A stretch of 46,266 bases of DNA from a virus (Duplodnaviria; Heunggongvirae; Uroviricota; Caudoviricetes), in the IMG/VR virus record IMGVR_UViG_2671180743_000008; one strand, given 5' to 3'. How positions within the stretch are numbered: the first letter of the stretch is position 1; each line of letters begins with the position of its first letter. The position numbers and the translations under genes are program-made. Under the pieces are notes generated by a model. The model had not been told where the DNA came from, made no database searches, and saw only the letters and a program-made list of their open reading frames with translations. Of the stretch, positions 1,938 through 37,585 are shown one piece after another.

Positions 1938-2918
1938 CTAACGTCCTGCTTTTAACAATAACCAGATAAACACCGGCGCACCCAACGTTGCGGTGACCAC
2001 GCCAATAGGCAGCTCTGCGGCAGCTAATGCCAGGCGCGCTACAATATCGGCCAGCAGCACTGCGCTCGCCCCTGCCAGCGCGCAGCCGGGAAGTAATACG
2101 CGATGATCGGTTAAACCACACAACCGAAGAATATGTGGGATCACCAGACCAATAAAGCCGATAGCACCCGCCAGCGCCACACTGACGCCAACCATCCAGC
2201 CGGTCGCTGCCACCAGCACATTGCGCCAGAACCACAGGGGTAAACCCAGTTGCCGCGCCGAGATCTCGCCAAGTGCTAACATATTCATCGGCCTGGACTG
2301 ACAACAGATCCACAACAACACGGGGATCAATGCCAGCATCAGCCAGCTTTGCCGCCAGTCTACGCCGCCAAAACCGCCCATCATCCAGTACATCAGCTGA
2401 CGTAAATCAACAGAGGTGGAAAAGTAGATAGCCCACGTCATTAGTGCGCTACAGATAATCCCTAATGCAACGCCAGCCAGCAATAACCGACTGGTCGAAA
2501 GATGACGACGGGCGAAACGTAAGAGTATTAAAGTGATGATAAGCGCGCCAGCAATCGCACACAGCCCTAGCGCCCAGTTGGGGAGTTGCCCTTGCCCAAG
2601 CAATACCGCGGCGATAAGCCCCACGCCTGCGCCGTTAGAGACGCCAAGTAGTCCAGGTTCTGCCAGAGGATTTTCAAACAACGCCTGCATTACAGCGCCG
2701 GATATAGCCAGCGCCGCACCAACCAGCAATACAGCCAGCGTACGTGGCAGGCGAATTTGCCAGACGAACAGTTCGCCACGAGGAGTAAACCAGTCACCTG
2801 GCGAAATCCATTGTTCACCGGCGCAAAGGCTTAAGAGAAGCGCCAGCAGCATCAAAACTGACAGGCATAATAACCAGCGAATATTTTGTCGCTGTTGTTG
2901 GCGGGCAAGTGTCAGCAT
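1938..2918 (-). CDS. btuC: Vitamin B12 ABC transporter permease
   Basis: 326 aa, highly hydrophobic multi-pass membrane protein of FecCD/BtuC type; first gene of the btuCED operon. Confidence 0.92.
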
Positions 2919-3110
2919 GGTATCCGTTCTGCTGAAGTGTCATGGCGTTGATTTTACGGTGACTCTTCGACAGTGAAAAGAAAAAAGGCCGCAGAGCGGC
3001 CATAAACACAAACAAAAATCAATAAGTTAGGTAATTATCAAAGACTTACAGACACACAAAAACACAGCCAACCACAACAAATAACAGAGATGTGGTCAAT
3101 TTGTGGATCA

Positions 3111-3665
3111 TCAGCCAACAAATTTAGCAACAAATACAGCAACCGCCGCTGTGAAAATGGTTGTGCACACTGGCACAATAATGCCACTCCAACGCCACTT
3201 CGTATTATCATCAACCTTGTCAAACCGCCGATTCATCTCATCCATAATCTTGTCAAAGCGTTTATCCATCGCTTCGGTAAGCTCACCCTTCAGGCTGTTA
3301 ATGTCTGATTTGAGCTGCTCTTTCAGGTTAGCTGTATCAGATTTAAGCTCACCTTTCAGATTCGCAATATCGCATTCAAGATCACCTTTCAGATGTGCTA
3401 TGTCTGCTTTGAGTTCACCTTTCACCTCACCAACATCGGCTTTAGTTGAGAGGTTTGTAGTGCGTTCAGCAAGCGTCGCAAGGTCGTTTCTTGTTAGCGA
3501 TAAATCACCTTCGAGCCGCTCAATTCGCCTTTCAAGTTTATCTGACATTCCGCCTCCACTACTGCCGCCATCGCCACCATGATAAAGCACATCACGCTCA
3601 GAATGCGACACACTACCTGCTGAATTACCGAAAAGATTTCTTGCTACATTACCCATTATCACCAT
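3111..3665 (-). CDS. Hypothetical coiled-coil protein with C-terminal transmembrane anchor (prophage cargo)
   Basis: 184 aa; Gly/Ser-rich N-terminus, repeated LKGELKxDIAxLKG-type heptad/11-mer repeats, single C-terminal hydrophobic helix (IIVPVCTTIFTAAVAVFVAKFV); overlaps upstream ORF by 17 nt; no family recognised. Confidence 0.6.
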   Translation of the reverse strand: MVIMGNVARNLFGNSAGSVSHSERDVLYHGGDGGSSGGGMSDKLERRIERLEGDLSLTRNDLATLAERTTNLSTKADVGEVKGELKADIAHLKGDLECDIANLKGELKSDTANLKEQLKSDINSLKGELTEAMDKRFDKIMDEMNRRFDKVDDNTKWRWSGIIVPVCTTIFTAAVAVFVAKFVG

Positions 3666-4149
3666 CCTGCGCTTTGTCTTTCTCCAACCACTTCAGCACC
3701 GCAGACGTACGATAAAGGCTCAGGTAACCACAATTCAGGCAATGCAGCGTGTAATAAGTTTTGCGCATATCAGGTATGCTCTTAACATCACCCAAAAAAG
3801 CATAAGATACATAATGCTTTATGTTCTCTTTAATTAACTCACTCTGTTCCTCCAGGGGTAGATTGTTAAAATTTTCTGGTTTCTTATTTTTATCCCAGCA
3901 AAGATCCATACTTTCTGGAACAGATAATCGCGACGATCCACATGAAGGGCAGACACTGGAGACCCCCTTCTCAGACAAGAAACGGAAGAAGATTTCTGGC
4001 GTAATCTCCATCAGCCGCTCTTTATGTTTTTTGACACGACTCATCGACTTCTTATTGATTTCATCAGCTTCTTCTTTGCATTTATCTTCTATATATTTCG
4101 ATAGTAAATAGTCATATAACTCTTTTTTTGTAGGTTTTTTTATTTCCAT
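3649..4149 (-). CDS. Hypothetical zinc-ribbon protein (prophage cargo)
   Basis: 166 aa; Lys/Glu-rich; CPSC ... CLNC cysteine pairs suggest a Zn ribbon; markedly AT-rich codon usage compared with flanking prophage genes; starts 3 nt after the integrase stop. Confidence 0.6.
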   Translation of the reverse strand: MEIKKPTKKELYDYLLSKYIEDKCKEEADEINKKSMSRVKKHKERLMEITPEIFFRFLSEKGVSSVCPSCGSSRLSVPESMDLCWDKNKKPENFNNLPLEEQSELIKENIKHYVSYAFLGDVKSIPDMRKTYYTLHCLNCGYLSLYRTSAVLKWLEKDKAQDGDNG

Positions 4150-4151
4150 AG

Positions 4152-5129
4152 TTACATTCCTCCCAAGGGATTAAACCTCACCGCATCCTGCAAGTAATCC
4201 GGCGCAAGATGGGCATAAATCATCGTTGTCTGAATCTTTGCGTGCCCCAGAATTTTCTGGAGCGTCAGAATATTGCCGCCGTTCATCATGAAATGACTGG
4301 CGAAGGTGTGGCGCAGCGCATGAACAGCCTGGCCGTCAGGAACATCAGGTGCGACCGTTTTGATGACATCGCGAACCAATGAATAATCCAGCGTCGGAAA
4401 CACCAGTTTCCCGCCCCGTTTTTTGATCTTTTCAAACAGGCTTTCAGAAATAGGAACGGTACGGTTTTTGCTGTTCTTCGTTTTTGAAAAAGTGATTCGA
4501 CAATGAAGAACACGGCGCTGCTCCAGTGCCGCTACCTCGCCCCATCGCGCCCCGGTCGACAGAAGGATTTCGACGGCCAGCCGTTCATCGGGATTTTCAG
4601 CCAGTGCATCCAGCAACTGAACACATTCAGACTTACTCAGATATCCCATTTCACGCTCGTTAACCTTCATTCCTTTAAGGCCTTGAACGGGGTTATCGTT
4701 AAGAAAATGGCCGGATGAGATGAGTGCGGTAAACATCGCGCTTAACGCCCCAATCTCTCGATTTATGGTGCTGGGCTGTATCCCCTGCTCTATCCTGGAC
4801 ACACGTAGCTCGGTGAGCATCGTTGTATTAAGTTTATGCACGCACGGGTCATCCATTGCCTCACTCAAGCGCAGCAATTTAAGGCGCGTGTTATGCCCTG
4901 ACTTCATTAGCTGGCCGTGGTATTTCCACCACAAGTCAATAAGCACTGACAGCGGACGGCGATCAATGGAGTTTCCTTTCCACTCATTGTTATGCTGTTG
5001 CGCCAGCACCCACCGCTCATATAAAACTGCATCCGATTTCGTTTTAAATTTTTTGCGAATGCGTTTGCCTTTACGCCCCTCAGGACGCATGTCAAGAAGA
5101 TACCCTCCCGGAATTGATTTTATGCTCAT
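4152..5129 (-). CDS. int: P2-type tyrosine integrase
   Basis: Start chosen at MSIKSIPGG (the ORF track extends to 5279); catalytic-region motifs HALRHTFASH and LGHAKIQTTMIYAHL; C-terminus FNPLGG typical of P2/186 integrases. Confidence 0.9.
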   Translation of the reverse strand: MSIKSIPGGYLLDMRPEGRKGKRIRKKFKTKSDAVLYERWVLAQQHNNEWKGNSIDRRPLSVLIDLWWKYHGQLMKSGHNTRLKLLRLSEAMDDPCVHKLNTTMLTELRVSRIEQGIQPSTINREIGALSAMFTALISSGHFLNDNPVQGLKGMKVNEREMGYLSKSECVQLLDALAENPDERLAVEILLSTGARWGEVAALEQRRVLHCRITFSKTKNSKNRTVPISESLFEKIKKRGGKLVFPTLDYSLVRDVIKTVAPDVPDGQAVHALRHTFASHFMMNGGNILTLQKILGHAKIQTTMIYAHLAPDYLQDAVRFNPLGGM

Positions 5130-5178
5130 TCGTGAAGCCCCAGCGTTACAAGACCACCATGCCCCCAGCGTTCCATGA

Positions 5179-5490
5179 TTAGCCGGGCTGTGTGCCAGTC
5201 TTGCGGGATTTTTGAGAAGACGATGTGTTTTCTGGCCCATCAGGGGAGAGAGAAGGACTGATCTGCCCAGCAGCCTCATTTGTTTCGTTACTCATCAACC
5301 ACGTAGTGTATTTTTTAAATTCCGGGTGCATTGTGATTTTCAGTAAAACCTCCGTTCCCACACCTCGAATACCAGTCTCGTATTGCTTAACCGTACCAAC
5401 CGCAATACCTATTGAATCCGCGAACTTTGCCTGACTAAGCCCCTCAGATTCTCGAATTGCTTTTAGCTTCTTTGATATCTCTATTGACAT
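5179..5490 (-). CDS. C: P2 C-type immunity repressor (HTH)
   Basis: Start chosen at MSIEISKK (103 aa); HTH segment LSQAKFADSIGIAVGTVKQYETG; C-terminal ...SSSQKSRKTG resembles the P2 C C-terminus; upstream of and co-oriented with int. Confidence 0.8.
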   Translation of the reverse strand: MSIEISKKLKAIRESEGLSQAKFADSIGIAVGTVKQYETGIRGVGTEVLLKITMHPEFKKYTTWLMSNETNEAAGQISPSLSPDGPENTSSSQKSRKTGTQPG

Positions 5491-5585
5491 GGTGTGCACC
5501 TGAATACTATATTGGTTATCAGTTGAGTACCACTTGACGCTACAAAGAGCCACAAATAGCACCAGATTGAATAGGTTATCACACC

Positions 5586-5864
5586 ATGGCAAAAGTCCTT
5601 AACACATACGAACAAGCGGATTTTGAGCGTTTGGCGGCGTTCTACCCATACCGTAATGAACATGGGCTACCGGTACTTGAAGAAAGCCTAGAGGATTATG
5701 CGAAACGCACAAATCAAAGCATTCTCGCTGTAAGAAGGCAGGCTGATAGATCGGTAATTCCCGTTACTCAAGAAGGAAGAAACACAAAACGCAAAGTAAA
5801 TCTCTTCGCAATTTTCCTGAAAACCATCAGAAACGCAGAGAAATACGTGCAGATGACAAAATAA
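5586..5864 (+). CDS. Cox/Apl-like early regulator (assigned by position)
   Basis: 92 aa ORF transcribed divergently from the repressor, first gene of the early operon as cox is in P2; sequence itself is not recognisably P2 Cox. Confidence 0.5.
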   Translation: MAKVLNTYEQADFERLAAFYPYRNEHGLPVLEESLEDYAKRTNQSILAVRRQADRSVIPVTQEGRNTKRKVNLFAIFLKTIRNAEKYVQMTK

Positions 5865-5878
5865 CGAGGTGTCATTTT

Positions 5879-6217
5879 ATGCTGAAGCAACGCCGTAATT
5901 TTTGTACCGGAACAGAACGCCACGCTAACCGTTTCACTACCAGTGCATCACGCAGCAACATCCGCTACAGCCTGAGTGATACACACGCAACGCCGGATGG
6001 CTACCCAGTAAAACAAATCGGCGAGCACGCCTGGCTGATTGAGAAAGCTGGAATCGTGATCCACAAATGCCCACGCAATCCGTTTACCGGAAACCGCATT
6101 TTTGCACTGAGCTGTGGCGACAATCAGTTCGGGCAGGATTTCACATTATACGAAGCACTTCGCACGGTTGATCGTCTGCTTCGCGGGCAAAGTTTTATTA
6201 AACAGGCTGATTTATAA
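5879..6217 (+). CDS. Hypothetical early-region protein
   Basis: 112 aa ORF in the early operon; no family recognised. Confidence 0.5.
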   Translation: MLKQRRNFCTGTERHANRFTTSASRSNIRYSLSDTHATPDGYPVKQIGEHAWLIEKAGIVIHKCPRNPFTGNRIFALSCGDNQFGQDFTLYEALRTVDRLLRGQSFIKQADL

Positions 6218-10823: not shown

Positions 10824-11783
10824 ATGAAAATTTGTATCGACGACGGCTCCACCAACATCAAGCTGGCATGGACTGAGAACGGCGAACGCCGCAACGCCAT
10901 CAGCCCGAACAGCTTCAAGTCGGAATGGTCTGCGCCGTTCGGTGGCATGCAGCCCGCGAACTACATGCTTGATGGCGTGCGCTATGGTTTTGATCCGGTC
11001 AGCGATCGCTTTGTCCAGACAACCGACACGCAATACCAGTACAGCGATGTAAATGTCATTGCCATTCATCACGCGCTGGTCAAATCAGGCATCACGCCAC
11101 AGGAGGTGGATGTGGTTGTCACCCTGCCACTGAGCGAGTATTTCGACACAAACGCACAGCCGGACATGGCCAACATCAACCGCAAAAAAGCGAACGTTAT
11201 GCGCCCGGTGGAGTACCAGAACGGCGAAGCATTCACTATCCGTAACGTGCGGGTTATGCCTGAATCCATTCCGGCTGGCTTTAAGGCACTGGCTGACATG
11301 AGTCCGTTTGAATCCCTGCTGATTGTGGATTTGGGCGGAACCACGCTGGATGTGGCAAAGGTTCAGGGGCAACTGGCAGGTATCAGCCAGGTGTTTTGCG
11401 ATCCACACGTAGGCGTTTCTCTGATGGCCGATGCCGTACTGTCGGTGATGGCCACTAACGGTATGCGCACCAGTCACCACATCGCCAATACCATTATCGA
11501 ACATCGCCATGATGAAGCCTGGCTGCGCCAGCACATCCACAATGACGCGCATTACGCCAGCCTGATGGCGGTTATTCGTGAAAAGGAAGAAACACTGAAA
11601 CAACGCGTGATCCGCGCGCTGGCGGGTTTTTCGGGTTACGGGCGGGTGATGGTTGTCGGTGGAGGGGCGGAGATTGTGGCACCCGCTATCCGCGAAGCCT
11701 GCGGAGTTAATGCGACTTTCATCGCGGACGGGGTGCCACAGTTTGCTCTGGTTAATGGGCTGTACGCAATGGACAAGGAGTAA
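10824..11783 (+). CDS. parM: ParM/StbA-family actin-like partition ATPase
   Basis: 319 aa; N-terminus MKICIDDGSTNIKLAW, internal YSDVNVIAIHHAL, VMPESIPAG, LIVDLGGTTLDVA, GVSL, FSGYGRVMVVGGGAE and C-terminal LVNGLYA all line up with plasmid R1 ParM as I recall it. Confidence 0.85.
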   Translation: MKICIDDGSTNIKLAWTENGERRNAISPNSFKSEWSAPFGGMQPANYMLDGVRYGFDPVSDRFVQTTDTQYQYSDVNVIAIHHALVKSGITPQEVDVVVTLPLSEYFDTNAQPDMANINRKKANVMRPVEYQNGEAFTIRNVRVMPESIPAGFKALADMSPFESLLIVDLGGTTLDVAKVQGQLAGISQVFCDPHVGVSLMADAVLSVMATNGMRTSHHIANTIIEHRHDEAWLRQHIHNDAHYASLMAVIREKEETLKQRVIRALAGFSGYGRVMVVGGGAEIVAPAIREACGVNATFIADGVPQFALVNGLYAMDKE

Positions 11784-11787
11784 ACCA

Positions 11788-12099
11788 ATGACGACACCAA
11801 CCAGACGGATAAGTTTCTATCTGAAGCCTGCGGCCGTCAAGAACGAAAGCGAAGCATGCGCCTGGCTGGGCAGCCTTACACCAGAAGCCCGCAAAAGCGG
11901 CCAACGCGTGGCTTTTCTGGCCGGGCTGGCACTTCTGAAAATGAATCCAGCAGAGGCTTACCGACTGGCTGCATGGGCTGACGATGAGGCGTTATCGGTG
12001 ACACAAACCAGGACAGAACGCCCCGTGCCACAGCCAGTACCAACCGCACAGATAACCAGTCAGATAGCAGGGAATATCCGGGCATTATTTCCTGAATGA
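11788..12099 (+). CDS. parR: ParR/StbB-like partition adaptor
   Basis: Start at MTTPTRRISFYLKP, 5 nt after the parM stop; N-terminal ribbon-helix-helix-like segment and C-terminal LFPE resemble R1 ParR; follows parM as in the parMR operon. Confidence 0.65.
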   Translation: MTTPTRRISFYLKPAAVKNESEACAWLGSLTPEARKSGQRVAFLAGLALLKMNPAEAYRLAAWADDEALSVTQTRTERPVPQPVPTAQITSQIAGNIRALFPE

Positions 12100-12159
12100 C
12101 GAATTTGACGGCTTTTAATTTTATCGGGGTGCACTGTCGCCCCGCACGAGGAAAACACG

Positions 12160-12684
12160 ATGAAAAAATACGAATACATGCTAATGAAAGAAGCACTGCG
12201 GGCTGGTCTGGCTCCCTGTCCTGTATCCGTAGAAGCTGTTGTTGGGAACACGATTTTCCGAACGCTGCGAAATCGCGTATCCGTGAAGATGGTTCACCAA
12301 CCACCCAAATCTACCAGCATGATCTATCTGCCGCTGCCCGAGGCTATCAAACTTATGCGTTCGCTGAAATTTGCGATTTGGATGCAGACACAAATCAACA
12401 AAGCGGTGCAAAACACCTTCGTTAAGAGACTAATACCGGAGCTTGCTGCCAGATGTGCAAAATGTACCAGACCCGCACTTCAATTTGATCTGTCATTGAT
12501 TCAACAAGCTACGGAGGCAGAACTGTACCGCCTGTCACCTATCCGTGATGCTCACACGGAAGCATCAGAAATGTTCCGGCTCATGTTTCAATTTAATTTT
12601 GCCGTTCGACGCACACGCGTTCAGGTCAATCGCATGATGCAGGAGCAGGAAGAGTTAACACAGTACAAAGGGGGCAGCCAGTGA
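12160..12684 (+). CDS. Hypothetical protein (hotspot cargo)
   Basis: 174 aa; good RBS (GAGG) upstream; no family recognised. Confidence 0.55.
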   Translation: MKKYEYMLMKEALRAGLAPCPVSVEAVVGNTIFRTLRNRVSVKMVHQPPKSTSMIYLPLPEAIKLMRSLKFAIWMQTQINKAVQNTFVKRLIPELAARCAKCTRPALQFDLSLIQQATEAELYRLSPIRDAHTEASEMFRLMFQFNFAVRRTRVQVNRMMQEQEELTQYKGGSQ

Positions 12685-12920
12685 GTAATTCAGCACGACT
12701 ACAGCTTGGTTTTTCACCGCTATCAAAAACCATCGTATTGGCAAAAATGCGTGACTTAGGAGACGGAACAAAACGCCGCGTAGGAAATGATCGCGGTCGC
12801 GATGTAACCAACGAGGCCGCTCAACTCGTTTGGCATCTAGTCATGGCAGAAGGCGGTGAAATTAATTGGGAGCTGGATGATGGTTCTCGTATGATTTTGA
12901 GGGCCGAGAAGAGTAAATAG
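12681..12920 (+). CDS. Hypothetical protein (hotspot cargo)
   Basis: 79 aa; start overlaps the previous stop by 4 nt, suggesting translational coupling. Confidence 0.5.
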   Translation: MSNSARLQLGFSPLSKTIVLAKMRDLGDGTKRRVGNDRGRDVTNEAAQLVWHLVMAEGGEINWELDDGSRMILRAEKSK

Positions 12921-12934
12921 CTCAAGGGGGATTA

Positions 12935-13120
12935 ATGCTAAATGATGATGAAGAAGAGCTGCTTATGCAGGAATGGTCGCTCGGTGATTATGATAATGGT
13001 GAAAATGGGTGCCCGCATTGTGGCCGTTATCGTTTATGTATCTGCCAGAATGGAAAACACAGATGTGAAAAGTGCAATTGGTCTCCGGAACTTAATGACT
13101 ACGTGCCGATCGAGTGGTAG
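12935..13120 (+). CDS. Small cysteine-rich (zinc-finger-like) protein
   Basis: 61 aa; acidic N-terminus then CPHCGRYRLCICQNGKHRCEKCNW (four Cys pairs). Confidence 0.5.
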   Translation: MLNDDEEELLMQEWSLGDYDNGENGCPHCGRYRLCICQNGKHRCEKCNWSPELNDYVPIEW

Positions 13121-13160
13121 AGGTAAGTCACACTAGGTGTTTTTTAGTTGATTTTATAAA

Positions 13161-13190
13161 TGCACAATAGTGCACAAATTTGCACAATTT
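13161..13190. repeat. Three TGCACAA direct repeats at exact 10-bp spacing
   Basis: TGCACAAtag TGCACAAatt TGCACAAttt, directly after the last early-region ORF in the non-coding gap that should contain cos. Confidence 0.6.
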
Positions 13191-13611
13191 TTTTGAACGA
13201 CTTTTTGCCCTTCCGGCCCGCGTGGCGGCTGGATCCGTCAAGGATCCGTGCATGCACAAAAAAACGCGTTTTTTCTGCGCGCAGGTGACGGGGGAACAGC
13301 CCGCGTTTCAGGGGGTAAATAGCATTCCCTGAACGATGTCGCAGAGATACAACAGAATGGCTGTATTTCTCACGCTGAGCGTGAAAAAGACGTGAGGGCT
13401 TTTGATTTGATGGGGTGAAAGGTAAGGCCGTCAAAATCGCACTGAGACGGCGAGAATATGCAGTCAACGAGGTGGGATTGCGTAAGAGTCTGACTGTCGA
13501 TGATGGCAATCAGCAGGAAAGCGTCGTGAAATTATCTGACTGATACAGGAGCTGGAGAGTCGGGGCATAAATTTTTTATGCCCCGGCGAAGCAGCAGACA
13601 AGCGAAGCGCG

Positions 13612-27525: not shown

Positions 27526-28632
27526 GTGAACACCGTTGGCAAATCGGCATTCGTGGAGGCTGTCGGTCGGGCGAGCGATGATGCGGAAGGTTACTTGGAT
27601 TTTTTCAAAGGAGAGATAGGGAAAACACATCTGGCTCAGGAGCTGTGGACGCAGATTGATAACGGTCAGCTTGCGCCTGACCTGGCTGAAATCAGGACGT
27701 CCATTACGGATGTCAGCAATGAAATCACGCAGACCGTCAATAAGAAACTGGAAGACCAGAGTGCGGCAATTCAGCAGATACAGAAGGTTCAGGTTGATAC
27801 AAATAATAATCTGAACAGCATGTGGGCTGTGAAGCTGCAACAGATGAAGGACGGACGCCTTTATATTGCGGGTATCGGTGCCGGTATTGAGAATACGCCA
27901 GCAGGAATGCAGAGTCAGGTGCTGCTGGCGGCAGACAGGATTGCGATGATTAATCCTGCGAATGGCAACACAAAGCCGATGTTTGTTGGTCAGGGCGATC
28001 AGATATTCATGAACGACGTGTTCCTGAAACGCCTGACGGCTCCCACCATTACCAGCGGCGGTAATCCTCCGGCATTTTCCCTGACACCGGACGGAAAACT
28101 GACCGCTAAAAATGCAGATATCAGTGGCAGTGTGAATGCGAACGCCGGGACGCTCAACAATGTCACAATTAATGAGAACTGTCAGATTAAGGGGAAACTG
28201 TCAGCCAACCAGATTGAAGGCGATATAGTCAAAACAGTGGGTAAGGCTTTTCCGCGGGACTCCCGGGCACCGGAGCGGTGGCCATCAGGGACCATTACCG
28301 TCAGGATTTATGACGATCAGCCTTTTGACAGGCAAATTGTTATTCCGGCGGTGGCATTCAGCGGCGCTAAACATGAGCGGGAGAATAACGATATTTATTC
28401 GTCATGCCGCCTGATAGTACGGAAAAACGGTGCTGAAATTTATAACCGTACCGCGCTGGATAATACGCTGATTTACAGTGGTGTTATTGATATGCCAGCT
28501 GGTCGCGGCCACATGACGCTGGAGTTTTCGGTGTCAGCATGGCTGGTGAATAACTGGTATCCCACAGCAAGTATCAGCGATTTGCTGGTTGTGGTGATGA
28601 AGAAAGCCACCGCAGGCATCAGTATCAGCTGA
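27526..28632 (+). pseudogene. Lambdoid host-specificity protein J, C-terminal fragment
   Basis: Open frame starts abruptly right after the G terminator with no plausible start or RBS (first codon GTG); followed by lom, stf and tfa in the lambda order J-lom-stf-tfa; family call from memory of lambda J. Confidence 0.6.
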
Positions 28633-28699
28633 ATTTTATAACCCATATACGGGCGCCAGAAATGGCGCCTTTTTTATTGCAGAAAAGCGAGAGGTAATT

Positions 28700-29299
28700 A
28701 TGCGTAAAGTTTGTGCAGCCATTTTGTCCGCAGCCATTTGCCTGGCCGTATCCGGTGCGCCTGCATGGGCGTCTGAACATCAGTCCACACTGAGCGCGGG
28801 GTATCTTCATGCCCGTACGAACGCTCCCGGCAGCGATAATCTGAACGGGATTAACGTGAAATACCGTTATGAGTTTACGGACGCGCTGGGGCTGATTACG
28901 TCCTTCAGTTATGCCAATGCTGAGGATGAGCAAAAAACGCACTACAGCGATACCCGCTGGCATGAAGATTCCGTGCGTAACCGCTGGTTCAGCGTGATGG
29001 CGGGGCCGTCTGTACGCGTGAATGAATGGTTCAGCGCGTATGCGATGGTGGGTGTGGCTTACAGCCGTGTGTCGACTTTCTCCGGGGATTATCTCCGCGT
29101 AACTGACAACAAGGGGAAAACGCACGATGTGCTGACCGGAAGTGATGACGGTCGCCACAGCAACACGTCTCTGGCGTGGGGGGCTGGCGTGCAGTTTAAC
29201 CCGACCGAATCCGTGACCATTGACCTTGCTTATGAAGGTTCCGGTAGTGGTGACTGGCGAACGGATGCATTTATTGTTGGTATCGGATACCGTATCTGA
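28700..29299 (+). CDS. lom: Lom (Ail/PagC/Lom-family outer-membrane beta-barrel protein)
   Basis: 199 aa with signal peptide; INVKYRYEFTD, VMAGP, SAYAMVGVA and C-terminal AYEGSGSGDWRTDAFIVGIGYRI line up with lambda Lom. Confidence 0.9.
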   Translation: MRKVCAAILSAAICLAVSGAPAWASEHQSTLSAGYLHARTNAPGSDNLNGINVKYRYEFTDALGLITSFSYANAEDEQKTHYSDTRWHEDSVRNRWFSVMAGPSVRVNEWFSAYAMVGVAYSRVSTFSGDYLRVTDNKGKTHDVLTGSDDGRHSNTSLAWGAGVQFNPTESVTIDLAYEGSGSGDWRTDAFIVGIGYRI

Positions 29300-29404
29300 C
29301 AACAGACGCCGATTTATCTTCTGTAAATATTGTTATGATACGCAGGTTCATCCACCTTATGGGGTGAACTGCGTTTGAGGAAACGTAAAGTTACACTGTC
29401 CTGA

Positions 29405-29437
29405 AGCCCGTGGCGTCACTGCTGCGGGCTTTTTTTA
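29405..29437 (+). terminator. Rho-independent terminator after lom
   Basis: AGCCCG ... CGGGCT stem followed by TTTTTTT. Confidence 0.65.
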
Positions 29438-29450
29438 TTGGTGGAAAAGT

Positions 29451-32207
29451 ATGACAGTAAAAATTTCTGGCGTGCTTAAAGATGGCACAGGAAAACCAGT
29501 ACAGAACTGCACCATTGTGCTGAAGGCCAGACGAACCAGCAGCACGATGGTGGTGAACACGGTGGCCTCTGAAAATCCGGATGAAGCCGGACGTTACAGC
29601 ATGGATGTTGAGCATGGTCAGTACAGCGTCACCCTGCTGGTTGAAGGTTTTCCGCCTTCACATGCCGGGACCATTACCGTCTATGAAGGTTCCAGACCAG
29701 GTACGCTGAATGATTTTCTCGGTGCCATGACGGAGGATGATGTCCGACCGGAGGCACTGCGCCGCTTTGAGCAGATGGTGGAAGAGGTGTCACGTAACGC
29801 CTCCGCGGTTGCACAGAATACGGCAGCCGCGAAAAAATCAGCCAGCGAGGCGGCAACTCATGCAACCGATGCTGCAGCCTCAGCACGTGCCGCCAGCACG
29901 TCAGCCGGACAGGCCGCGTCGTCGGCTCAGTCAGCGTCTTCCAGCGCAGGAACGGCATCGACAAAGGCCCGTGAAGCAGCAAAAAGTGCTGCTGCAGAGT
30001 CATCAAAAAGCGCGGCAGCTACCAGCGCCAGTGCCGCGAAAACGTCAGAAACGAATGCCGCAGCATCACAAAAATCGGCAGCCACTTCTGCATCCACAGC
30101 GACCACGAAGGCGTCAGAAGCTGCCACCTCGGCACGGGGTGCGGCGGCCTCAAAAGAGGCAGCGAAATCTTCAGAAACGAATGCATCATCAAGTGCCAGT
30201 AGTGCAGCTTCCTCGGCAACGGCGGCAGGAAATTCCGCGAAGGCGGCAAAAACGTCCGAGACGAACGCTAAGTCTTCTGAAACAGCAGCGGGACAGAGCG
30301 CCTCAGCTGCGGCAGGTTCAAAAACAGCGGCTGCATTATCTGCCAGTGCCGCGTCAACAAGTGCCGGGCAGGCCTCAGCCAGTGCCACCGCCGCCGGAAA
30401 ATCGGCAGAAAGCGCCGCATCATCCGCTTCAACAGCCACAACGAAGGCTGGCAAAGCCACTGAGCAAGCCACTGCAGCAGCGAGGTCTGCTTCTGCAGCA
30501 AAAACCTCTGAAACAAATGCAAAGACTTCAGCAGACAATGCTGCTTCCTCTAAGGCAGCAGCCGCATCGTCAGCCAGTTCAGCGGCGTCATCGGCATCAT
30601 CTGCGTCTGCTTCAAAAGATGAGGCGACCAGACAAGCGTCAGCAGCGAAAGGTAGTGCCACGACAGCAACAACGAAAGCATCAGAGGCGGCAGGCAGTGC
30701 GACGGCTGCATCTCAGAGCAAAGTTGCTGCTGAATCCGCGGCAACGCGCGCCGAGACAGCAGCAAAACGGGCAGAGGATATTGCATCCGCCGTGGCGCTG
30801 GAGGATGCGAGCACGACGAAAAAGGGGATAGTACAGCTCAGCAGTGCGACCAACAGCACTTCCGAGTCACTGGCGGCAACGCCAAAAGCGGTTAAGGCGG
30901 TAATGGGTGAAACGAACAAGAAAGCGCCCTTAAATAGTCCTGCACTGACCGGAACGCCAACAACACCAACTGCGCGACAGGGAACGAATAATACCCAAAT
31001 CGCAAGCACGGCTTTCGTTATGGCTGCGATTGCCGCCCTTGTAGATTCGTCACCTGATGCACTGAACACGCTGAACGAGCTGGCTGCGGCGCTGGGCAAC
31101 GACCCGAATTTTGCGACCACCATGACTAACGCGCTTGCGGGTAAGCAACCGAAAGATGCCACCCTGACGGCGCTGGCCGGACTTACTACTGCGGCAGGCA
31201 AGTTTCCGTATTTTACGGGGAATGATGTCGCCAGCCTGGCAACCCTGACAAAAGTCGGGCGGGATATTCTTGCGAAATCGACCGTTGCTGCCGTTATCGA
31301 ATACCTCGGTTTACAGGAAACGGTAAACAAGGCTGGTAACGCCGTTCAGCGTTCCGGCGATAAAATGACCGGAGAACTGAAAATTGGCACGGTGAATGCG
31401 CTGCGAATTTTCAATGATACCTTCGGTCTAATTTTCCGTCGTTCAGAAGATTTTCTTCATTTCATTCCGACGGCTGAAGGACAAGGCGAAAACGGTAATA
31501 TCGGCCCATTAAGGCCATTCGCTATAAATCTGAGAACAGGTGCTATATCTGTCAGCCACGGGGCCAAAATTAAAGGAGGTCTAGCTATTGGAGCTACTGA
31601 TAACGCACTGGGTGAAAACTCCATTGTTCTGGGAGATAACGACACCGGATTTAGGCAAGATGGAGATGGTATTATTAGCTTCTATTCAAATGGTTCGCGC
31701 ATCGGACATATTGATGAGTTAGGATTACATCTTTATAAAGATATTGAATCTAATGGCAGCAATTTTAGATTAAAAAGTAATTACCGCCACCACATTACAT
31801 TCGCCAACGAAGACGGAAGAATTCGTATGTTTTTGTGGAAAGATAACGGTGGTGATGGTGTTCATATTAATAACGGTTCAGATGGTGGTGGTGATTTCAT
31901 TTTTAAAACAGATGGGGGATTTGCGCTGGGAAGTGGTGCGCAAGTTGCGTCTAGTGGCGATATTTATGGTTCAGTGTGGGAAAACAACTGGTTAAGCACA
32001 TGGCTGCATAATCATGTCGTTCGGGATATTCGTCTTGGCAGCATTGAATATAAAAACGTATGGCGCGACTACGGCTTTGGCGATGCGTCAGGTTATGTTT
32101 TAACAGCCGCAATTAACAGCAATGCGGATGATATTGTCGACACTGTTGCCAGAAGGCCAATTCAGAAATTGATTGGGGGAATATGGTACAACGTGGGGAG
32201 TGTTTAA
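29451..32207 (+). CDS. stf: Lambdoid side tail fibre protein Stf (tip variant B)
   Basis: 918 aa; long Ala/Ser/Thr-rich repetitive shaft; C-terminal half homologous to H but not identical to copy 1 in the shaft (GIVQLSSATNSTSES versus [15 protein letters not shown]); contains a gix-like site. Confidence 0.85.
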   Translation: MTVKISGVLKDGTGKPVQNCTIVLKARRTSSTMVVNTVASENPDEAGRYSMDVEHGQYSVTLLVEGFPPSHAGTITVYEGSRPGTLNDFLGAMTEDDVRPEALRRFEQMVEEVSRNASAVAQNTAAAKKSASEAATHATDAAASARAASTSAGQAASSAQSASSSAGTASTKAREAAKSAAAESSKSAAATSASAAKTSETNAAASQKSAATSASTATTKASEAATSARGAAASKEAAKSSETNASSSASSAASSATAAGNSAKAAKTSETNAKSSETAAGQSASAAAGSKTAAALSASAASTSAGQASASATAAGKSAESAASSASTATTKAGKATEQATAAARSASAAKTSETNAKTSADNAASSKAAAASSASSAASSASSASASKDEATRQASAAKGSATTATTKASEAAGSATAASQSKVAAESAATRAETAAKRAEDIASAVALEDASTTKKGIVQLSSATNSTSESLAATPKAVKAVMGETNKKAPLNSPALTGTPTTPTARQGTNNTQIASTAFVMAAIAALVDSSPDALNTLNELAAALGNDPNFATTMTNALAGKQPKDATLTALAGLTTAAGKFPYFTGNDVASLATLTKVGRDILAKSTVAAVIEYLGLQETVNKAGNAVQRSGDKMTGELKIGTVNALRIFNDTFGLIFRRSEDFLHFIPTAEGQGENGNIGPLRPFAINLRTGAISVSHGAKIKGGLAIGATDNALGENSIVLGDNDTGFRQDGDGIISFYSNGSRIGHIDELGLHLYKDIESNGSNFRLKSNYRHHITFANEDGRIRMFLWKDNGGDGVHINNGSDGGGDFIFKTDGGFALGSGAQVASSGDIYGSVWENNWLSTWLHNHVVRDIRLGSIEYKNVWRDYGFGDASGYVLTAAINSNADDIVDTVARRPIQKLIGGIWYNVGSV
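31294..31319. other. gix/pix-like crossover site inside stf
   Basis: TTATCGAATACCTCGGTTTACAGGAA, same sequence and orientation as the site in H. Confidence 0.75.
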
Positions 32208-32208
32208 G

Positions 32209-32535
32209 ATGATGCACCTGAAAAATATTAAGGCCGGGAATCCGAAAACACCGGAACAATACCAGCTAACTAAAAAACCGCTGGGATACCTCATTCGCGT
32301 GTCTGAGTGGTGGGAGTTCAACGGCGAACCCGGAACATTCAAGATTGATGTTGGCACGCTGGACAGTGGCGTGACGGAGGAAATGTATCTGGAAATGGAG
32401 CGGTTGATTGCTGATGCCCGCCCGGTCAGCCGCCACATGACAGGGCTGAATATCATTCAGGAGATTCAGGGAGATATTTTCGCGGCAGCAGCAACTTACG
32501 ACGGTGAAGTCATTACCATTTATCCGGACGATTAA
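32209..32535 (+). pseudogene. Chimeric ORF: tfa N-terminus (23 codons) fused in frame to the C-terminal part of gene I
   Basis: [23 protein letters not shown] then PLGYLIRVSEWWEF...ITIYPDD, which is identical to the end of gene I at about 24665..24925; junction at about 32277/32278. Confidence 0.75.
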
Positions 32536-32537
32536 GC

Positions 32538-34451
32538 ATGAGTACCACAACACGAAAATTTAAAACCATTATCACCGATACGGGTGCAAAAAAATTAGCG
32601 CAGGCAACCGCGCCAGATGGGAAACCTGTCCGCCTGACACATATGGCCGTGGGTGACGGCGGCGGTACTTTACCCACGCCAGACAGTAAGCAGACCCGTC
32701 TTGTGCATGAGGTGTGGCGACATACCGTTAATCGCGTCACCCTGGACGCAACACATCAGAACCACATTATTGCGGAGCTGGTTATTCCTCCTGAAACGGG
32801 CGGATTCTGGATCCGGGAAATTGGTGTGTTTGATGAGCACGGCGATTTGATCGCGGTAGGCAATACTGCCGAAAGTTACAAGCCAACCGTTGCCGAAGGA
32901 TCCGGACGTGCACAAACATTTCGCACCATTCTGACCGTATCCAGCACTGCCACTGTGGCGCTTACCGTGGATAACACCATGGTGATGGCCACAGTGAATT
33001 ACGTGGATGACAAACTGAAAGAGCATGAACAGTCACGACGTCACCCGGACGCCTCGCTGACCGCAAAAGGCCTTGTCCAGCTCAGCAACGCCACCAACAG
33101 CACGTCTGAAACGCTGGCAGCGACACCAAAAGCCGTTAAGGCAGTAATGGATGAAACGAACAAGAAAGCCCCATTAAACAGCCCGGCACTGACCGGAACG
33201 CCAACAACACCAACTGCGCGACAGGGAACGAATAATACCCAAATCGCAAGCACGGCTTTCGTTATGGCTGCGATTGCCGCACTTGTAGACTCTTCGCCTG
33301 ATGCACTGAACACACTGAACGAGCTGGCGGCGGCGCTGGGCAACGACCCGAATTTTGCGACCACCATGACTAACGCGCTTGCGGGTAAGCAACCGAAAGA
33401 TGCCACTCTGACGGCGCTGGCGGGGCTTGCTACTGCGGCAGACAGGTTTCCGTATTTTACGGGGAATGATGTCGCCAGCCTGGCAACCCTGACAAAAGTC
33501 GGGCGGGATATTCTTGCGAAATCGACCGTTGCCGCCGTTATCGAATACCTCGGTTTACAGGAAACGGTAAACAAGGCTGGTAACGCCGTTCAGCGTTCCG
33601 GCGATAAAATGACCGGAGAACTGAAAATTGGCACGGTGAATGCGCTGCGAATTTTCAATGATACCTTCGGTCTAATTTTCCGTCGTTCAGAAGATTTTCT
33701 TCATTTCATTCCGACGGCTGAAGGACAAGGCGAAAACGGTAATATCGGCCCATTAAGGCCATTCGCTATAAATCTGAGAACAGGTGCTATATCTGTCAGC
33801 CACGGGGCCAAAATTAAAGGAGGTCTAGCTATTGGAGCTACTGATAACGCACTGGGTGAAAACTCCATTGTTCTGGGAGATAACGACACCGGATTTAGGC
33901 AAGATGGAGATGGTATTATTAGCTTCTATTCAAATGGTTCGCGCATCGGACATATTGATGAGTTAGGATTACATCTTTATAAAGATATTGAATCTAATGG
34001 CAGCAATTTTAGATTAAAAAGTAATTACCGCCACCACATTACATTCGCCAACGAAGACGGAAGAATTCGTATGTTTTTGTGGAAAGATAACGGTGGTGAT
34101 GGTGTTCATATTAATAACGGTTCAGATGGTGGTGGTGATTTCATTTTTAAAACAGATGGGGGATTTGCGCTGGGAAGTGGTGCGCAAGTTGCGTCTAGTG
34201 GCGATATTTATGGTTCAGTGTGGGAAAACAACTGGTTAAGCACATGGCTGCATAATCATGTCGTTCGGGATATTCGTCTTGGCAGCATTGAATATAAAAA
34301 CGTATGGCGCGACTACGGCTTTGGCGATGCGTCAGGTTATGTTTTAACAGCCGCAATTAACAGCAATGCGGATGATATTGTCGACACTGTTGCCAGAAGG
34401 CCAATTCAGAAATTGATTGGGGGAATATGGTACAACGTGGGGAGTGTTTAA
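32538..34451 (+). CDS. H: Tail fibre protein H, copy 2 (recombinant: H copy 1 N-terminus plus stf tip B)
   Basis: 637 aa; identical to copy 1 up to [11 protein letters not shown], then identical to the stf C-terminus ([13 protein letters not shown]...WYNVGSV); the switch coincides with the gix-like site. Confidence 0.85.
33538..33563. other. gix/pix-like crossover site inside H copy 2
   Basis: TTATCGAATACCTCGGTTTACAGGAA, same orientation as the other two intragenic sites. Confidence 0.75.
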
Positions 34452-34452
34452 G

Positions 34453-34980
34453 ATGATGCACCTGAAAAATATTAAGGCCGGGAATCCGAAAACACCGGAA
34501 CAATACCAGCTAACTAAAAAAGCGGGCGTGGTATGGCTCTTTTGCGAAGATGGCAAAAACTGGTATGAGGAACAAAAGAATTTTCAGCCAGACACCATAA
34601 AAATTGCTTACGATGAGAACAACATCATCGTTGCTGTCAGTAAAGACGTTTCAACTATTAATCCTGAAGGGCTAAGCATAGTTGAAGTTCCTGATATTAC
34701 GGCAAATCGTCACGCAGACAATAACGGAAAATGGATGTTTCTGGATGGTAAAGTAGTAAAGAGGGAATATACAGAACAGGAACTGCAACAACAGGCCGAA
34801 TCACAAAAGGCCGCATTGCTTTCCGAAGCTGAATCAGTCATCCAGCCGCTGGAACGCGCTGTCAGGCTGAATATGGCGACGGACGAGGAACGCACACGAC
34901 TGGAAGCATGGGAACGCTACAGTGTTCTGGTCAGCCGTGTGGATACGGCAAATCCTGAATGGCCACAAAAGCCTGAATAA
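34453..34980 (+). CDS. tfa: Tail fibre assembly protein Tfa (partner of tip B)
   Basis: Start at [23 protein letters not shown]; 175 aa; follows H copy 2 with a 1-nt gap. Confidence 0.85.
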
Positions 34981-34984
34981 AAAT

Positions 34985-35004
34985 TAAGGCCCGATAGCGG
35001 GCCT
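34985..35004. terminator. Bidirectional hairpin terminator between convergent tfa genes
   Basis: AAGGCCCGATAGCGGGCCTT lying between the stops of the plus-strand tfa (34980) and the minus-strand tfa (35009). Confidence 0.6.
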
Positions 35005-35008
35005 TCTC

Positions 35009-35542
35009 TCATTCTGGTTGTTCGGGAAACGTTACTGGCAGGCTGGAGGTGTCTGTGGATTCGACCTTCTGCGCATAGAGCATCCACTCGGTTAATTTTT
35101 GTTTATTCTCATCGGAAATGATGCCCAGCTGTAGCTGAGAGTCCCACAGCTGGGTTTTATCCCTGACGAGCTGCAGCAGGCTCTGCTTTTCATTTTCCGC
35201 TTGTTGCCTTTGCTCTTCCTCGGTATAAGTTCGCTTTATCACCGCACCATCTTTGAACATCCAGTTGCCCGAAATATCAGCCCGGCGATTTGCTGTAATA
35301 TCAGGCAACTCAACGACACTTAAACCTTCTGGATTAATTGCTGATACATCCTTGTCTATAGCAATAATTATTCCCTCAACTGTGTAAGCCAGTTTTATTG
35401 TATCCTCCTGAAAGTTTTTTAATTCCTCATGCCAATTTTTTCCATCTTCGGACCATAACCAGATAACATCAAAATTCTTTGTTAGCTGGTATTGTTCAAC
35501 GGTTTTTGGATTACCTGCGACAATGTTTTTTAAATGCTGCAT
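35009..35542 (-). CDS. Tail fibre assembly protein Tfa (inverted orientation, partner of tip C)
   Basis: 177 aa; [23 protein letters not shown]-terminus typical of Tfa; opposite strand to the expressed fibre genes, as in Mu G / e14 P invertible segments. Confidence 0.8.
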
Positions 35543-35694
35543 GATTATACCTGCGATACGTTATACCATGTTCCGTTAATTAACTTTTGTATTGGTCTGA
35601 ATACTGCCGGATCATCACCATCGACTTCACCGATAATACCAAGCCCCGTGATTACATGGCCTGATTTTTCATACATCACGCCTTTCTTCATGGT

Positions 35695-36479: not shown

Positions 36480-36533
36480 TGGCGGTTTCTGGCCTGCATG
36501 GCATGATTTGCGCTTTTGGACGGGAGATTCAGC

Positions 36534-37583: not shown

Positions 37584-37585
37584 CG

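What the first reader, a model, noticed from the sequence alone, without database searches (positions are those of the whole stretch)
3111..4149. AT-rich two-gene module between the integrase and the chromosome junction: candidate uncharacterised defence or exclusion system
Two overlapping minus-strand ORFs (3649..4149 and 3111..3665, 17-nt overlap) sit between the int stop and the chromosomal btuC upstream region. P2 itself has nothing between att and int. Their base composition is visibly more AT-rich than the surrounding prophage, which marks them as horizontally acquired cargo. The first product is Lys/Glu-rich with a CPSC...CLNC zinc-ribbon signature. The second has a Gly/Ser-rich N-terminus, a long repetitive coiled coil and a single C-terminal membrane anchor. 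I recognise neither as a known family. A nucleic-acid-binding sensor paired with a membrane-anchored effector is a common layout for abortive-infection or superinfection-exclusion modules, but that functional reading is inference.
Basis: partly seen in the sequence, partly recalled or inferred. Interest (0 to 1): 0.75.

Follow-up and report, generated by a model that had tools for sequence, protein, structure and literature searches.

The report
Prophage zinc-ribbon plus membrane-stalk gene pair
Between the integrase and the attachment site of this E. coli P2-like prophage sits an uncharacterised two-gene cassette, a small zinc-ribbon protein and a tail-anchored coiled-coil membrane protein, that recurs in many unrelated temperate phages, often right behind the repressor gene, and is a good but untested candidate for a phage-exclusion system.

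Summary
Two minus-strand genes lie inside the prophage between attL (25-bp core, 2977-3001) and int.

- **ORF1 (3649-4149):** a 4-Cys zinc-ribbon protein with no Pfam, NCBIfam, PADLOC, PDB or fold match. It belongs only to phrog_4293 (function unknown).
- **ORF2:** a DUF1640/CCDC90 (MCUR1)-like protein. It has a variable N-tail, a Gly-rich linker, a head helix, an LSTKAD beta-layer, 11-residue repeats and a C-terminal TM. RefSeq annotates only a truncated form from the internal ATG at 3548. The long form is real and probably starts at ATG 3656, giving an 8-nt overlap.

The pair is a conserved, translationally coupled cassette found in P2-like, 186-like, Mu-like and lambdoid phages at different positions. 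Five of about ten contexts put it in the repressor/integrase operon, including the position rexAB holds in lambda.

Among about 300 E. coli prophages sharing this integrase, the slot is polymorphic. Three versions of the pair are only 24-34% identical to each other (about 123 genomes), and an unrelated gene fills the slot in 158 genomes.

ORF1 type tracks the ORF2 N-tail type, with the mosaic breakpoint in the Gly linker. A conserved internal Met preceded by a Shine-Dalgarno motif suggests two ORF2 isoforms.

The cargo reading is supported. The defence function is plausible but unproven.

The parts
2977..3001 (.). attL core: a 25-bp direct repeat identical to the copy next to ihfA at the far prophage end. 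On the minus strand it forms the GGCCGC-TCT-GCGGCC hairpin plus T-run (the ihfA terminator), which would end the cI-int-ORF1-ORF2 transcript.
   Evidence: repeat; terminator 3001-2987
3002..3110 (-). att-proximal non-coding arm, conserved in about 300 E. coli prophages whatever cargo fills the slot. It is the likely site of the Int arm-type sites, by analogy with the P2 P' arm.
   Evidence: first ~100 nt match in 301 genomes; P2 layout
3111..3665 (-). ORF2: a tail-anchored DUF1640/CCDC90-like coiled-coil protein. The maximal ORF is 184 aa. The likely start is ATG 3656 (181 aa, 8-nt overlap with ORF1).
3582..3665 (-). ORF2 variable N-terminal tail (residues 1-28). Its type goes with the ORF1 type, and it is predicted to be disordered.
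3549..3581 (-). Gly-rich linker (HGGDGGSSGGG). The mosaic breakpoint lies here. It also contains the GGAGG at 3553-3557, 4 nt upstream of the internal ATG.
3546..3548 (-). Conserved internal ATG (Met40). This is the RefSeq start and a candidate second translation start giving a short, tail-less isoform.
   Evidence: (M40 invariant)
3222..3452 (-). Beta-layer (LSTKAD, residues 72-77) followed by 11-residue repeats (GELKADIAHLK and similar). The repeat copy number varies among relatives in 11-aa steps.
3126..3182 (-). C-terminal transmembrane anchor (residues 162-180).
3649..4149 (-). ORF1: a 166-aa soluble 4-Cys zinc-ribbon protein (phrog_4293). Invariant residues are C67, C70, G71, C137, C140, G141, F54, F57, L58 and W154.
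4152..5129 (-). Tyrosine integrase. Its stop lies 2 nt before the ORF1 start.
5179..5490 (-). cI-like HTH repressor and first gene of the presumed lysogenic operon. The divergent early promoter-like site lies at 5484-5513 (+).

Best explanation
The two genes form a mobile 'moron' cassette of temperate phages that is expressed in the lysogen. Here it would be read from the cI-int transcript.

ORF2 is a tail-anchored inner-membrane protein. Its cytoplasmic part is an MCUR1-like stalk: head helix, beta-layer and hendecad coiled coil, probably trimeric. A flexible Gly linker joins the stalk to a variable N-terminal tail.

ORF1 is a soluble zinc-ribbon protein made by translational coupling. It docks on that tail and acts as the specificity or sensor subunit.

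The complex most likely acts against other phages, as superinfection exclusion or abortive infection, in the manner of RexAB-type systems. Either ORF1 triggers the membrane protein, or the membrane stalk sequesters ORF1 until infection releases it.

A conserved internal start may give a tail-less short ORF2 isoform that tunes the complex.

**Shown:** gene structure, architecture, conservation of pairing, operon geometry, slot polymorphism, and the association of ORF1 type with tail type.

**Inferred:** expression in the lysogen, physical ORF1-tail binding, trimer formation, two isoforms, and the anti-phage function.
For: **Pairing.** The pair is conserved with an 8-nt overlap or a 0-4-nt gap in every intact locus examined:
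- 21 IMG/VR loci
- Klebsiella
- Providencia, a type-B-like P2-like locus (L031) and a more distant P2-like locus
- 186-like and Mu-like phages
- lambdoid SPN3UB gp24/gp25
- lambdoid L044

**Lysogeny-operon position.** The orders found are:
- cI-int-pair in the window
- cI-pair-int in L034
- CI-pair in L044
- S24 repressor-HIRAN-pair in L045

The P2 annotation shows Pc reading through C and then int. No intrinsic terminator was found between int and the att-core hairpin.

**Polymorphic slot.** Strongly diverged alleles sit between near-identical flanks.

**Type-to-tail association.** ORF1 type A always goes with tail type A, and type B with tail type B. The stalk and TM stay about 97% identical, with the breakpoint in the Gly linker.

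**ORF2 architecture and DUF1640 link**. MCUR1 is a membrane scaffold whose head binds a partner (PMC6801532).

**Internal start.** A Shine-Dalgarno-like motif precedes the conserved Met in 9 of 11 lineages, against 2.3-4.9 expected (P = 2e-5 to 0.012).

**Precedents.** RexAB-type systems sit behind the repressor and pair a soluble protein with a membrane protein. The Butters variant has reversed polarity (PMC12894663). A defence hotspot between cI and int exists in K139-like P2 relatives (PMC9122126).
Against: - There is no homology to any PADLOC defence model.
- There is no enzymatic or known effector domain.
- A single tail-anchor helix is unlike the multi-pass RexB-type effectors.
- With nearly all of ORF2 in the cytoplasm, it cannot meet an incoming tail in the periplasm as classical Sie proteins do.
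- In some phages the cassette lies in late regions: before the holin in L035, and within tail genes in L036 and SPN3UB. There, expression in the lysogen is not evident, and promoter scans were not above chance.
- No expression, interaction or phenotype data exist.
- The ORF1-tail interaction rests on an association across only three types.
Confidence: 0.4

Rival explanations
1. The cassette serves the phage's own lysis or life-cycle control. ORF2 would be a holin-, antiholin- or XhlA-like membrane protein with dual-start isoforms, and ORF1 its regulator.
For: - There are weak PHROG matches of ORF2 and its partners to lysis families: holin phrog_689 (E = 0.004), XhlA-type 'hemolysin' phrog_1193 (E = 0.023) and holin/antiholin phrog_10340 (E = 2.6e-4).
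- In the Mu-like L035 the pair lies directly upstream of the holin and the SLT endolysin.
- The conserved internal start resembles dual-start holin/antiholin genes (the dual-start comparison is from my own knowledge).
Against: - The window prophage has a complete separate lysis cassette: holin, M15 endolysin, LysB and LysC.
- Most copies lie in lysogeny operons or moron regions, not lysis cassettes.
- More than half of the prophages with this integrase lack the pair altogether, so it is dispensable.
- The PHROG matches are weak and driven by coiled coil plus TM.
Confidence: 0.15
2. It is a toxin-antitoxin or addiction-type module that stabilises the prophage. One product would be a membrane toxin and the other its protein antidote.
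For: - Two small, translationally coupled genes sit at a prophage end.
- A Hok/Gef toxin and a PIN protein sit at the other end of the RM8426 prophage.
- The L043 remnant sits beside a Gp49/HTH_37 TA pair, and its membrane partner is interrupted by an IS element.
Against: - There is no similarity to known TA families.
- Strong allele diversification and variation in stalk length are not typical of addiction modules.
- Many TA-like modules are themselves abortive-infection systems, so this rival overlaps the best explanation.
Confidence: 0.15
3. It is a lysogenic-conversion factor acting on host physiology. ORF2 would be an MCUR1-like membrane scaffold that recruits or sequesters a host protein, for example a transporter or regulator, through ORF1.
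For: - ORF2 shares the DUF1640 architecture, and MCUR1 is a scaffold for a membrane channel complex.
- Stand-alone DUF1640 genes occur in ordinary chromosomal contexts.
- Borrelia prophage-borne Bdr proteins are inner-membrane associated and of unknown function (PMC10016077). That they are built from repeats is from my own knowledge.
Against: - Rapid allelic diversification, with 24-34% identity between types in the same slot, is easier to explain by conflict with other phages than by a conserved host target.
- The family is strongly restricted to phages.
Confidence: 0.1

Closest known systems
DUF1640 / CCDC90-like family (PF07798; MCUR1, CCDC90B, yeast Put6/Put7, prokaryotic homologues)
   Same: - ORF2 has the family's order of elements: helix, beta-layer motif (LSTKAD against the consensus aliphatic-A-T-K-polar-D/E), non-heptad coiled-coil stalk, and C-terminal TM.
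- NCBI names it DUF1640/CCDC90.
- The family profile's best solved-structure hit is 6H9L, over the beta-layer and 11-residue repeats.
   Different: - The Pfam score is below the gathering threshold (24-25 bits against 33.5).
- There is no globular head, only a single roughly 30-residue helix.
- ORF2 has an extra variable N-tail and Gly linker.
- It has an obligatory zinc-ribbon partner gene.
- The cassette is phage-borne.
- Typical bacterial relatives such as P0067 are stand-alone genes without a tail or a partner.
RexAB-type prophage abortive-infection systems (lambda RexA/RexB; Sbash gp30/31; CarolAnn; P. putida RexABpp; Butters gp30/31)
   Same: - It is a two-gene cassette of a soluble protein plus a membrane protein.
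- It lies in, or just downstream of, the repressor operon (L044, L045, L034 and the window).
- It is accessory and prophage-borne.
   Different: - There is no sequence or fold similarity.
- The membrane partner is a single tail-anchored helix with a long cytoplasmic coiled coil, not a multi-pass channel.
- The soluble partner is a small zinc ribbon, not a RexA-like DNA-binding dimer.
- The function is untested.
P2-family variable cargo loci (old/tin between A and Q; Z/fun; the cI-int hotspot of K139-like phages; Rousset et al. 2022)
   Same: - It is a polymorphic cargo slot bounded by conserved phage genes.
- Alternative, unrelated contents occur in otherwise near-identical prophages.
   Different: - The position differs (int to attL) and is not among the hotspots named in the passages of that paper retrieved here.
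- The content is dominated by diverged versions of one cassette plus one unrelated gene, rather than by many different systems.
Borrelia Bdr proteins (cp32 prophage plasmids)
   Same: - They are prophage-borne, inner-membrane-associated proteins of unknown function (PMC10016077).
- From my own knowledge, not tested here: they have 11-residue repeats whose copy number varies, and a C-terminal hydrophobic anchor.
   Different: - No sequence relationship was tested or detected here.
- No zinc-ribbon partner is known for Bdr.

Membership tests
DUF1640 / CCDC90-like (PF07798) | Pfam model score at or above the gathering threshold (33.5 bits) | tested here: not met
   The long form scores 24.1 bits and the short form 25.1 bits. 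Close homologues carry precomputed PF07798 hits, and NCBI names them DUF1640/CCDC90.
DUF1640 / CCDC90-like (PF07798) | Beta-layer motif [aliphatic]-A-T-K-[polar]-[D/E] at the start of the stalk | tested here: met
   The motif is L72-S-T-K-A-D77. T74, K75 and D77 are invariant in A6. The motif definition comes from PMC4786415.
DUF1640 / CCDC90-like (PF07798) | Coiled-coil stalk followed by a C-terminal transmembrane segment | tested here: met
   The periodicity peak is at 3.67 residues. The TM spans 162-180 with KD 2.43. The helix segmentation is H40-69, H75-149 and H153-183.
DUF1640 / CCDC90-like (PF07798) | Profile similarity to a solved family-type structure | tested here: inconclusive
   The best hit is 6H9L at E = 1.1e-4, but it runs over repetitive, compositionally biased sequence. 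That the entry belongs to the family is my recollection, not something verified here.
DUF1640 / CCDC90-like (PF07798) | Globular head domain and trimeric assembly | not testable with these tools
   Only a monomer could be modelled (pLDDT 57). The region before the beta-layer is a single helix.
RexAB-type abortive infection | Homology to RexA/RexB or to any catalogued defence protein | tested here: not met
   PADLOC gives only weak coiled-coil matches to LmuB, ZorA and LeoBC for ORF2 and nothing meaningful for ORF1.
RexAB-type abortive infection | Two-gene soluble + membrane cassette co-located with the prophage repressor operon | tested here: met
   This holds for the window (cI-int-pair), L034 (cI-pair-int), L044 (CI-pair) and L045 (S24 repressor-HIRAN-pair). 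It does not hold in the Mu-like and tail-region contexts.
RexAB-type abortive infection | Multi-pass membrane effector | tested here: not met
   ORF2 has a single C-terminal TM.
RexAB-type abortive infection | Protection against phage infection with growth arrest or membrane damage | not testable with these tools
   This needs experiments.
Phage lysis proteins (holin / XhlA-like) | Significant family match and location in the lysis cassette | tested here: not met
   Only weak PHROG matches were found (E = 0.004-0.03). The window's lysis cassette is elsewhere. Adjacency to a holin was seen only in L035.

The most novel reading that the evidence does not exclude
The cassette is a previously unrecognised, widespread two-component anti-phage system of temperate phages. 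A tail-anchored MCUR1-like trimeric stalk would present, on a flexible variable tail, a rapidly diversifying zinc-ribbon specificity subunit. Two ORF2 isoforms from a conserved internal start would set its activity. This would also give the first function for prokaryotic DUF1640 proteins.
Probability: 0.3. Interest if true: 0.8.

Novelty: new variant of a known kind. Interest (0 to 1): 0.6.

Why it matters
If the cassette excludes phages, it adds a compact system that current defence catalogues do not detect. It is carried by about 2% of complete E. coli genomes at this one site alone, and by P2-like, Mu-like and lambdoid phages across Enterobacterales.

It would also point to a new effector logic: a tail-anchored coiled-coil stalk with an exchangeable zinc-ribbon subunit.

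It would give an experimental handle on the prokaryotic relatives of the mitochondrial scaffold MCUR1, whose bacterial function is unknown.

Independently of function, the work corrects a systematic RefSeq start-site error. It also defines a new polymorphic cargo slot (int to attL) in a common E. coli prophage lineage.

Tried and rejected
**Searches that found no relative of ORF1**
- Pfam, NCBIfam and PADLOC gave no significant hit for ORF1.
- PDB sequence search with both a single sequence and the family profile found nothing.
- Foldseek against BFVD and the PDB gave nothing at E <= 1e-3.
- The afdb50 library was unavailable.
- tblastn of ORF1 against 50,697 phage records gave no match. Only more distant family members opened that route.

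**Other negative or uninformative results**
- The Rfam scan of 2800-6000 gave only a sub-threshold STnc540 hit at the att/btuC leader.
- Promoter scans in the window and in three other phage contexts were not above the shuffled expectation. An autonomous promoter is therefore neither shown nor excluded.
- No natural ORF1-ORF2 fusion was found among the 150 best-scoring (listed) of the 171 representative hits.
- A complex prediction could not be run, because the tool models single chains only.

**Readings considered and rejected**
- Spurious ORFs: rejected because the pair is conserved across genera.
- An excisionase or recombination accessory: rejected because an Apl/Cox-like gene sits in its usual place, the pair occurs without an integrase in Providencia, Mu-like and lambdoid contexts, and a membrane anchor is implausible for that role.
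- Only the short RefSeq form being real: rejected because the roughly 30-40 upstream codons stay open in all 11 lineages, carry conserved peptide motifs such as GVTPIR, and show only in-frame indels.
Full report
**Observation**

The window is an E. coli chromosome, 99.9% identical over the region to O26 strain RM8426. A P2/186-like prophage is inserted between btuC and ihfA.

The two minus-strand ORFs are present as described. The prophage boundary is a 25-bp direct repeat, AAAGAAAAAAGGCCGCAGAGCGGCC, at window 2977-3001. The same repeat lies next to ihfA at the far end in RM8426. It is the ihfA terminator hairpin.

The pair (3111-4149) therefore lies inside the prophage, between attL and int (4152-5129). 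In P2 itself the attP core lies only about 80 bp from the int stop.

GC content by segment:

| Segment | GC |
|---|---|
| ORF1 | 38.5% |
| ORF2 | 45.0% |
| int | 50.3% |
| rest of the prophage | 53.9% |

**Gene models**

RefSeq annotates ORF2 only from the internal ATG at 3548, giving 145 aa beginning MSDKLERR. That ATG has a GGAGG 4 nt upstream. The long form is nevertheless real, for four reasons:

- Strains STEC388 and TUM1880 are about 99% identical to the window from the Gly-rich linker to btuC and strongly diverged upstream. In both, the upstream roughly 30-38 codons remain in frame, including across an 18-nt indel.
- Homologues from E. coli, Salmonella and Klebsiella share peptide motifs in this region, for example K-R-E-x-G-V-T-P-I-R.
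- A GGD repeat expansion in locus L016 is in frame.
- In all 11 independent lineages examined, the extension is open and starts at or over the ORF1 stop.

The family-wide junction is an 8-nt overlap. In the window that corresponds to ATG 3656, giving 181 aa as in cluster P0019.

**ORF2**

The order of elements is:

1. a variable N-tail of about 28 aa
2. a Gly-rich linker
3. a conserved helix (LERRIERLE...)
4. the motif LSTKAD
5. 11-residue repeats (GELKADIAHLK and similar)
6. a MDKRFDK segment
7. a TM at residues 162-180, four residues from the end

The hydrophobic periodicity peaks at 3.67 residues, i.e. 11/3. Homologue lengths step by 11 aa (112/123/134/145/156 and 170/181/192). This shows variation in repeat copy number, which fits the 33-bp tandem repeat at the DNA level.

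The Pfam PF07798 score is below the gathering threshold, at 24-25 bits against 33.5. A family profile's best solved-structure hit is 6H9L at E = 1e-4, over the beta-layer and the 11-residue repeats. Lupas-lab beta-layer constructs follow it in the list.

The monomer AF2 model has low confidence (pLDDT 57). Its segmentation is a disordered tail 1-39, helix 40-69, a break at 70-74, helix 75-149 and a TM helix 153-183.

MCUR1, the founding member of the family, is described as head + beta-layer neck + stalk + TM. It is a scaffold whose head binds a partner protein (PMC6801532).

A typical bacterial relative, P0067, is a stand-alone chromosomal gene with no tail, no linker and no partner.

**ORF1**

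ORF1 has no significant match in Pfam, NCBIfam or PADLOC. Its only family is phrog_4293, of unknown function, at E = 8e-23.

The family is small. A word-indexed search of 5.8 billion proteins returned about 35 clusters. An exhaustive profile search of 1.84 billion representatives returned 171, nearly all of 57-180 aa; the one longer hit (264 aa) is a low-complexity match.

Invariant residues are C67, C70, G71, C137, C140, G141, F54, F57, L58 and W154.

The AF2 model is confident (pLDDT 87.8, pTM 0.70). It shows a long N-terminal helix, a short helix, beta-hairpins carrying the two CxxCG knuckles, and a C-terminal helix.

It has no significant structural neighbour:

- Foldseek against BFVD and against the PDB gives nothing at E <= 1e-3.
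- The only resemblances are weak ones to small zinc ribbons: TFIIS-type, NrdR and ribosomal L37ae-type.

**The pair is a conserved cassette**

In every intact locus examined, an ORF1 homologue is followed by a partner with the ORF2 design, with an 8-nt overlap or a gap of a few nucleotides. That design is a variable tail, a GGGGxD-type linker, a Met, an LE(K/R)R(I/V)xxLE helix, a coiled coil and a C-terminal TM. One remnant (L043) has its partner cut by an IS element, and in L045 the partner lacks the Gly linker.

The cassette's position differs between phages:

| Position | Where seen |
|---|---|
| int - pair - attL | E. coli; one Klebsiella locus (L005); 21 IMG/VR P2-like prophage contigs (host taxa not checked) |
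| int - 278-aa gene - pair | L032 |
| cI - pair - int | 186-like phage L034 |
| beside ogr, no integrase nearby | Providencia |
| upstream of holin and endolysin | Mu-like phage L035 |
| between tape measure and the DNA-circularisation protein | Mu-like phage L036 |
| arc/ant/KilA-N accessory region of the tail cluster | Salmonella phage SPN3UB (gp24/gp25) |
| accessory region upstream of the tape-measure gene, near an HTH gene | Klebsiella ST101-KPC2phi6.1 |
| directly behind a CI-type repressor | lambdoid prophage L044 |
| behind an S24 repressor and a HIRAN gene | L045 |

All distant ORF1 relatives fall in phrog_4293. Their partners fall in phrog_9415, 3556, 6136 and 6324, all of unknown function.

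**The slot is polymorphic**

About 300 of 5,426 complete E. coli genomes carry this integrase and the roughly 100-bp att-proximal arm. Between these flanks the slot holds one of the following:

| Slot content | Genomes |
|---|---|
| Unrelated 131-aa soluble protein with no family match (includes O104:H4 2011C-3493 and O55:H7 CB9615) | 158 |
| 'Type C' version of the pair, 120 + 145 aa (ORF1 profile E = 1e-18; 24% and 34% identical to the window proteins) | 86 |
| Type A or type B pair sharing this ORF2 stalk (type A, as in the window: 23) | 37 |

Types A and B differ throughout ORF1 (about 24% identity) and throughout the ORF2 tail. They share about 97-99% identity in the stalk, the TM and the att arm. 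The breakpoint lies in the Gly linker.

Every type A ORF1 goes with a type A tail, and every type B ORF1 with a type B tail. This is the basis for inferring that ORF1 binds the tail.

**A possible second isoform**

The Met immediately after the Gly linker is invariant among close homologues and nearly so across the family.

In 9 of 11 independent lineages, a GGAG or GAGG lies 3-10 nt upstream of that Met, spelled largely by the rare Gly codon GGA. Synonymous resampling gives the following expectations:

| Codon-usage null | Expected lineages | P |
|---|---|---|
| E. coli usage | 2.3 | 2e-5 |
| the cassette genes' own usage | 3.6 | 8e-4 |
| uniform usage | 4.9 | 0.012 |

This suggests, but does not prove, that both a long tail-bearing form and a short tail-less form are made.

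**Interpretation**

The geometry in the window is cI, then int, a 2-nt gap, ORF1, an overlap, ORF2, and then about 110 nt to the att-core terminator. No intervening terminator was found. This indicates co-transcription with the lysogenic operon. In P2 that operon is read from Pc through C and int.

Several features fit a lysogen-expressed accessory module engaged in conflict with other phages:

- the repressor-adjacent copies in other phages
- the polymorphic slot
- the strong allelic diversification
- the moron-like mobility between phage families
- the low GC content

The closest functional analogues are RexAB-type systems. They pair a soluble protein with a membrane protein and sit behind the repressor. 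The Butters variant has reversed polarity: the membrane protein sequesters the soluble effector (PMC12894663). A defence hotspot between cI and int has been described in K139-like P2 relatives (PMC9122126).

There is, however, no homology to any known defence protein, no recognisable effector domain, and no experimental evidence. Some copies lie in late-gene regions.

I therefore give the anti-phage reading a confidence of 0.4. The rivals are lysis or life-cycle control at 0.15, a toxin-antitoxin or addiction module at 0.15, and a host-directed scaffold at 0.1.

**Novelty**

Neither the cassette nor the ORF1 family appears in the searched literature or in the defence catalogue used here. ORF2 belongs to a known family whose bacterial function is unknown.

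If the cassette works as proposed, it is a new variant of the known kind 'prophage two-component exclusion system'. It would not be a member of any known family of such systems.

Noticed in passing
window 27526-38329: This P2-like prophage carries a roughly 10-kb block of lambdoid-type genes between its tail-fibre and tail-tube/tape-measure genes. The block holds a J C-terminal receptor-binding fragment, Lom/Ail, two stf-like side tail fibres, two lambda-gpK-family tail fibre assembly proteins and gp37_C. The otherwise 99.9%-identical RM8426 prophage has only a serine O-acetyltransferase at this position.
   Followed up: partly
window 3111-3548 against 3111-3656/3665; also L002, L003, L005: RefSeq/PGAP systematically annotates the DUF1640 gene from the internal Met. 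That drops the conserved N-tail and Gly linker, and in TUM1880 the upstream zinc-ribbon gene is not annotated at all.
   Followed up: yes
L040 2599-2994 (E. coli A24); L041 (O104:H4 2011C-3493): The most common occupant of the int-attL slot (158 genomes) is an unrelated AT-rich (40% GC) 131-aa soluble protein. It has no match in Pfam or PADLOC, and its function is unknown.
   Followed up: partly
L004 12822-15159 (RM8426, far prophage end, beyond the window): The opposite prophage end carries further cargo next to attR: a 500-aa PIN-domain protein, ogr and a Hok/Gef toxin gene.
   Followed up: no
window 3222-3452; homologues P0019-P0061: The copy number of the 33-bp (11-residue) repeat varies from about 1 to 6 among close relatives. 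The stalk length of ORF2 is therefore highly variable, and the Gly linker also expands by GGD units (L016).
   Followed up: partly
L032 4111-4947; L034 6687-7766; L045 3586-3969: Other cargo genes accompany the cassette in the int/repressor region of related phages: a 278-aa membrane protein, a PIN_12 protein and a HIRAN-domain protein. The lysogeny module looks like a multi-cargo zone in these lineages.
   Followed up: no
window 10824-13509: The classical P2 hotspot region (between gpA and the portal) here holds ParM, a partition protein and small hypothetical genes. One of these (12160-12684) has no Pfam match.
   Followed up: no
window 2919-3042 (-): There is a sub-threshold Rfam match to the enterobacterial sRNA STnc540 (22.1 bits against a gathering score of 38; E = 0.087). 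It spans the att core/ihfA terminator and the btuC leader.
   Followed up: no
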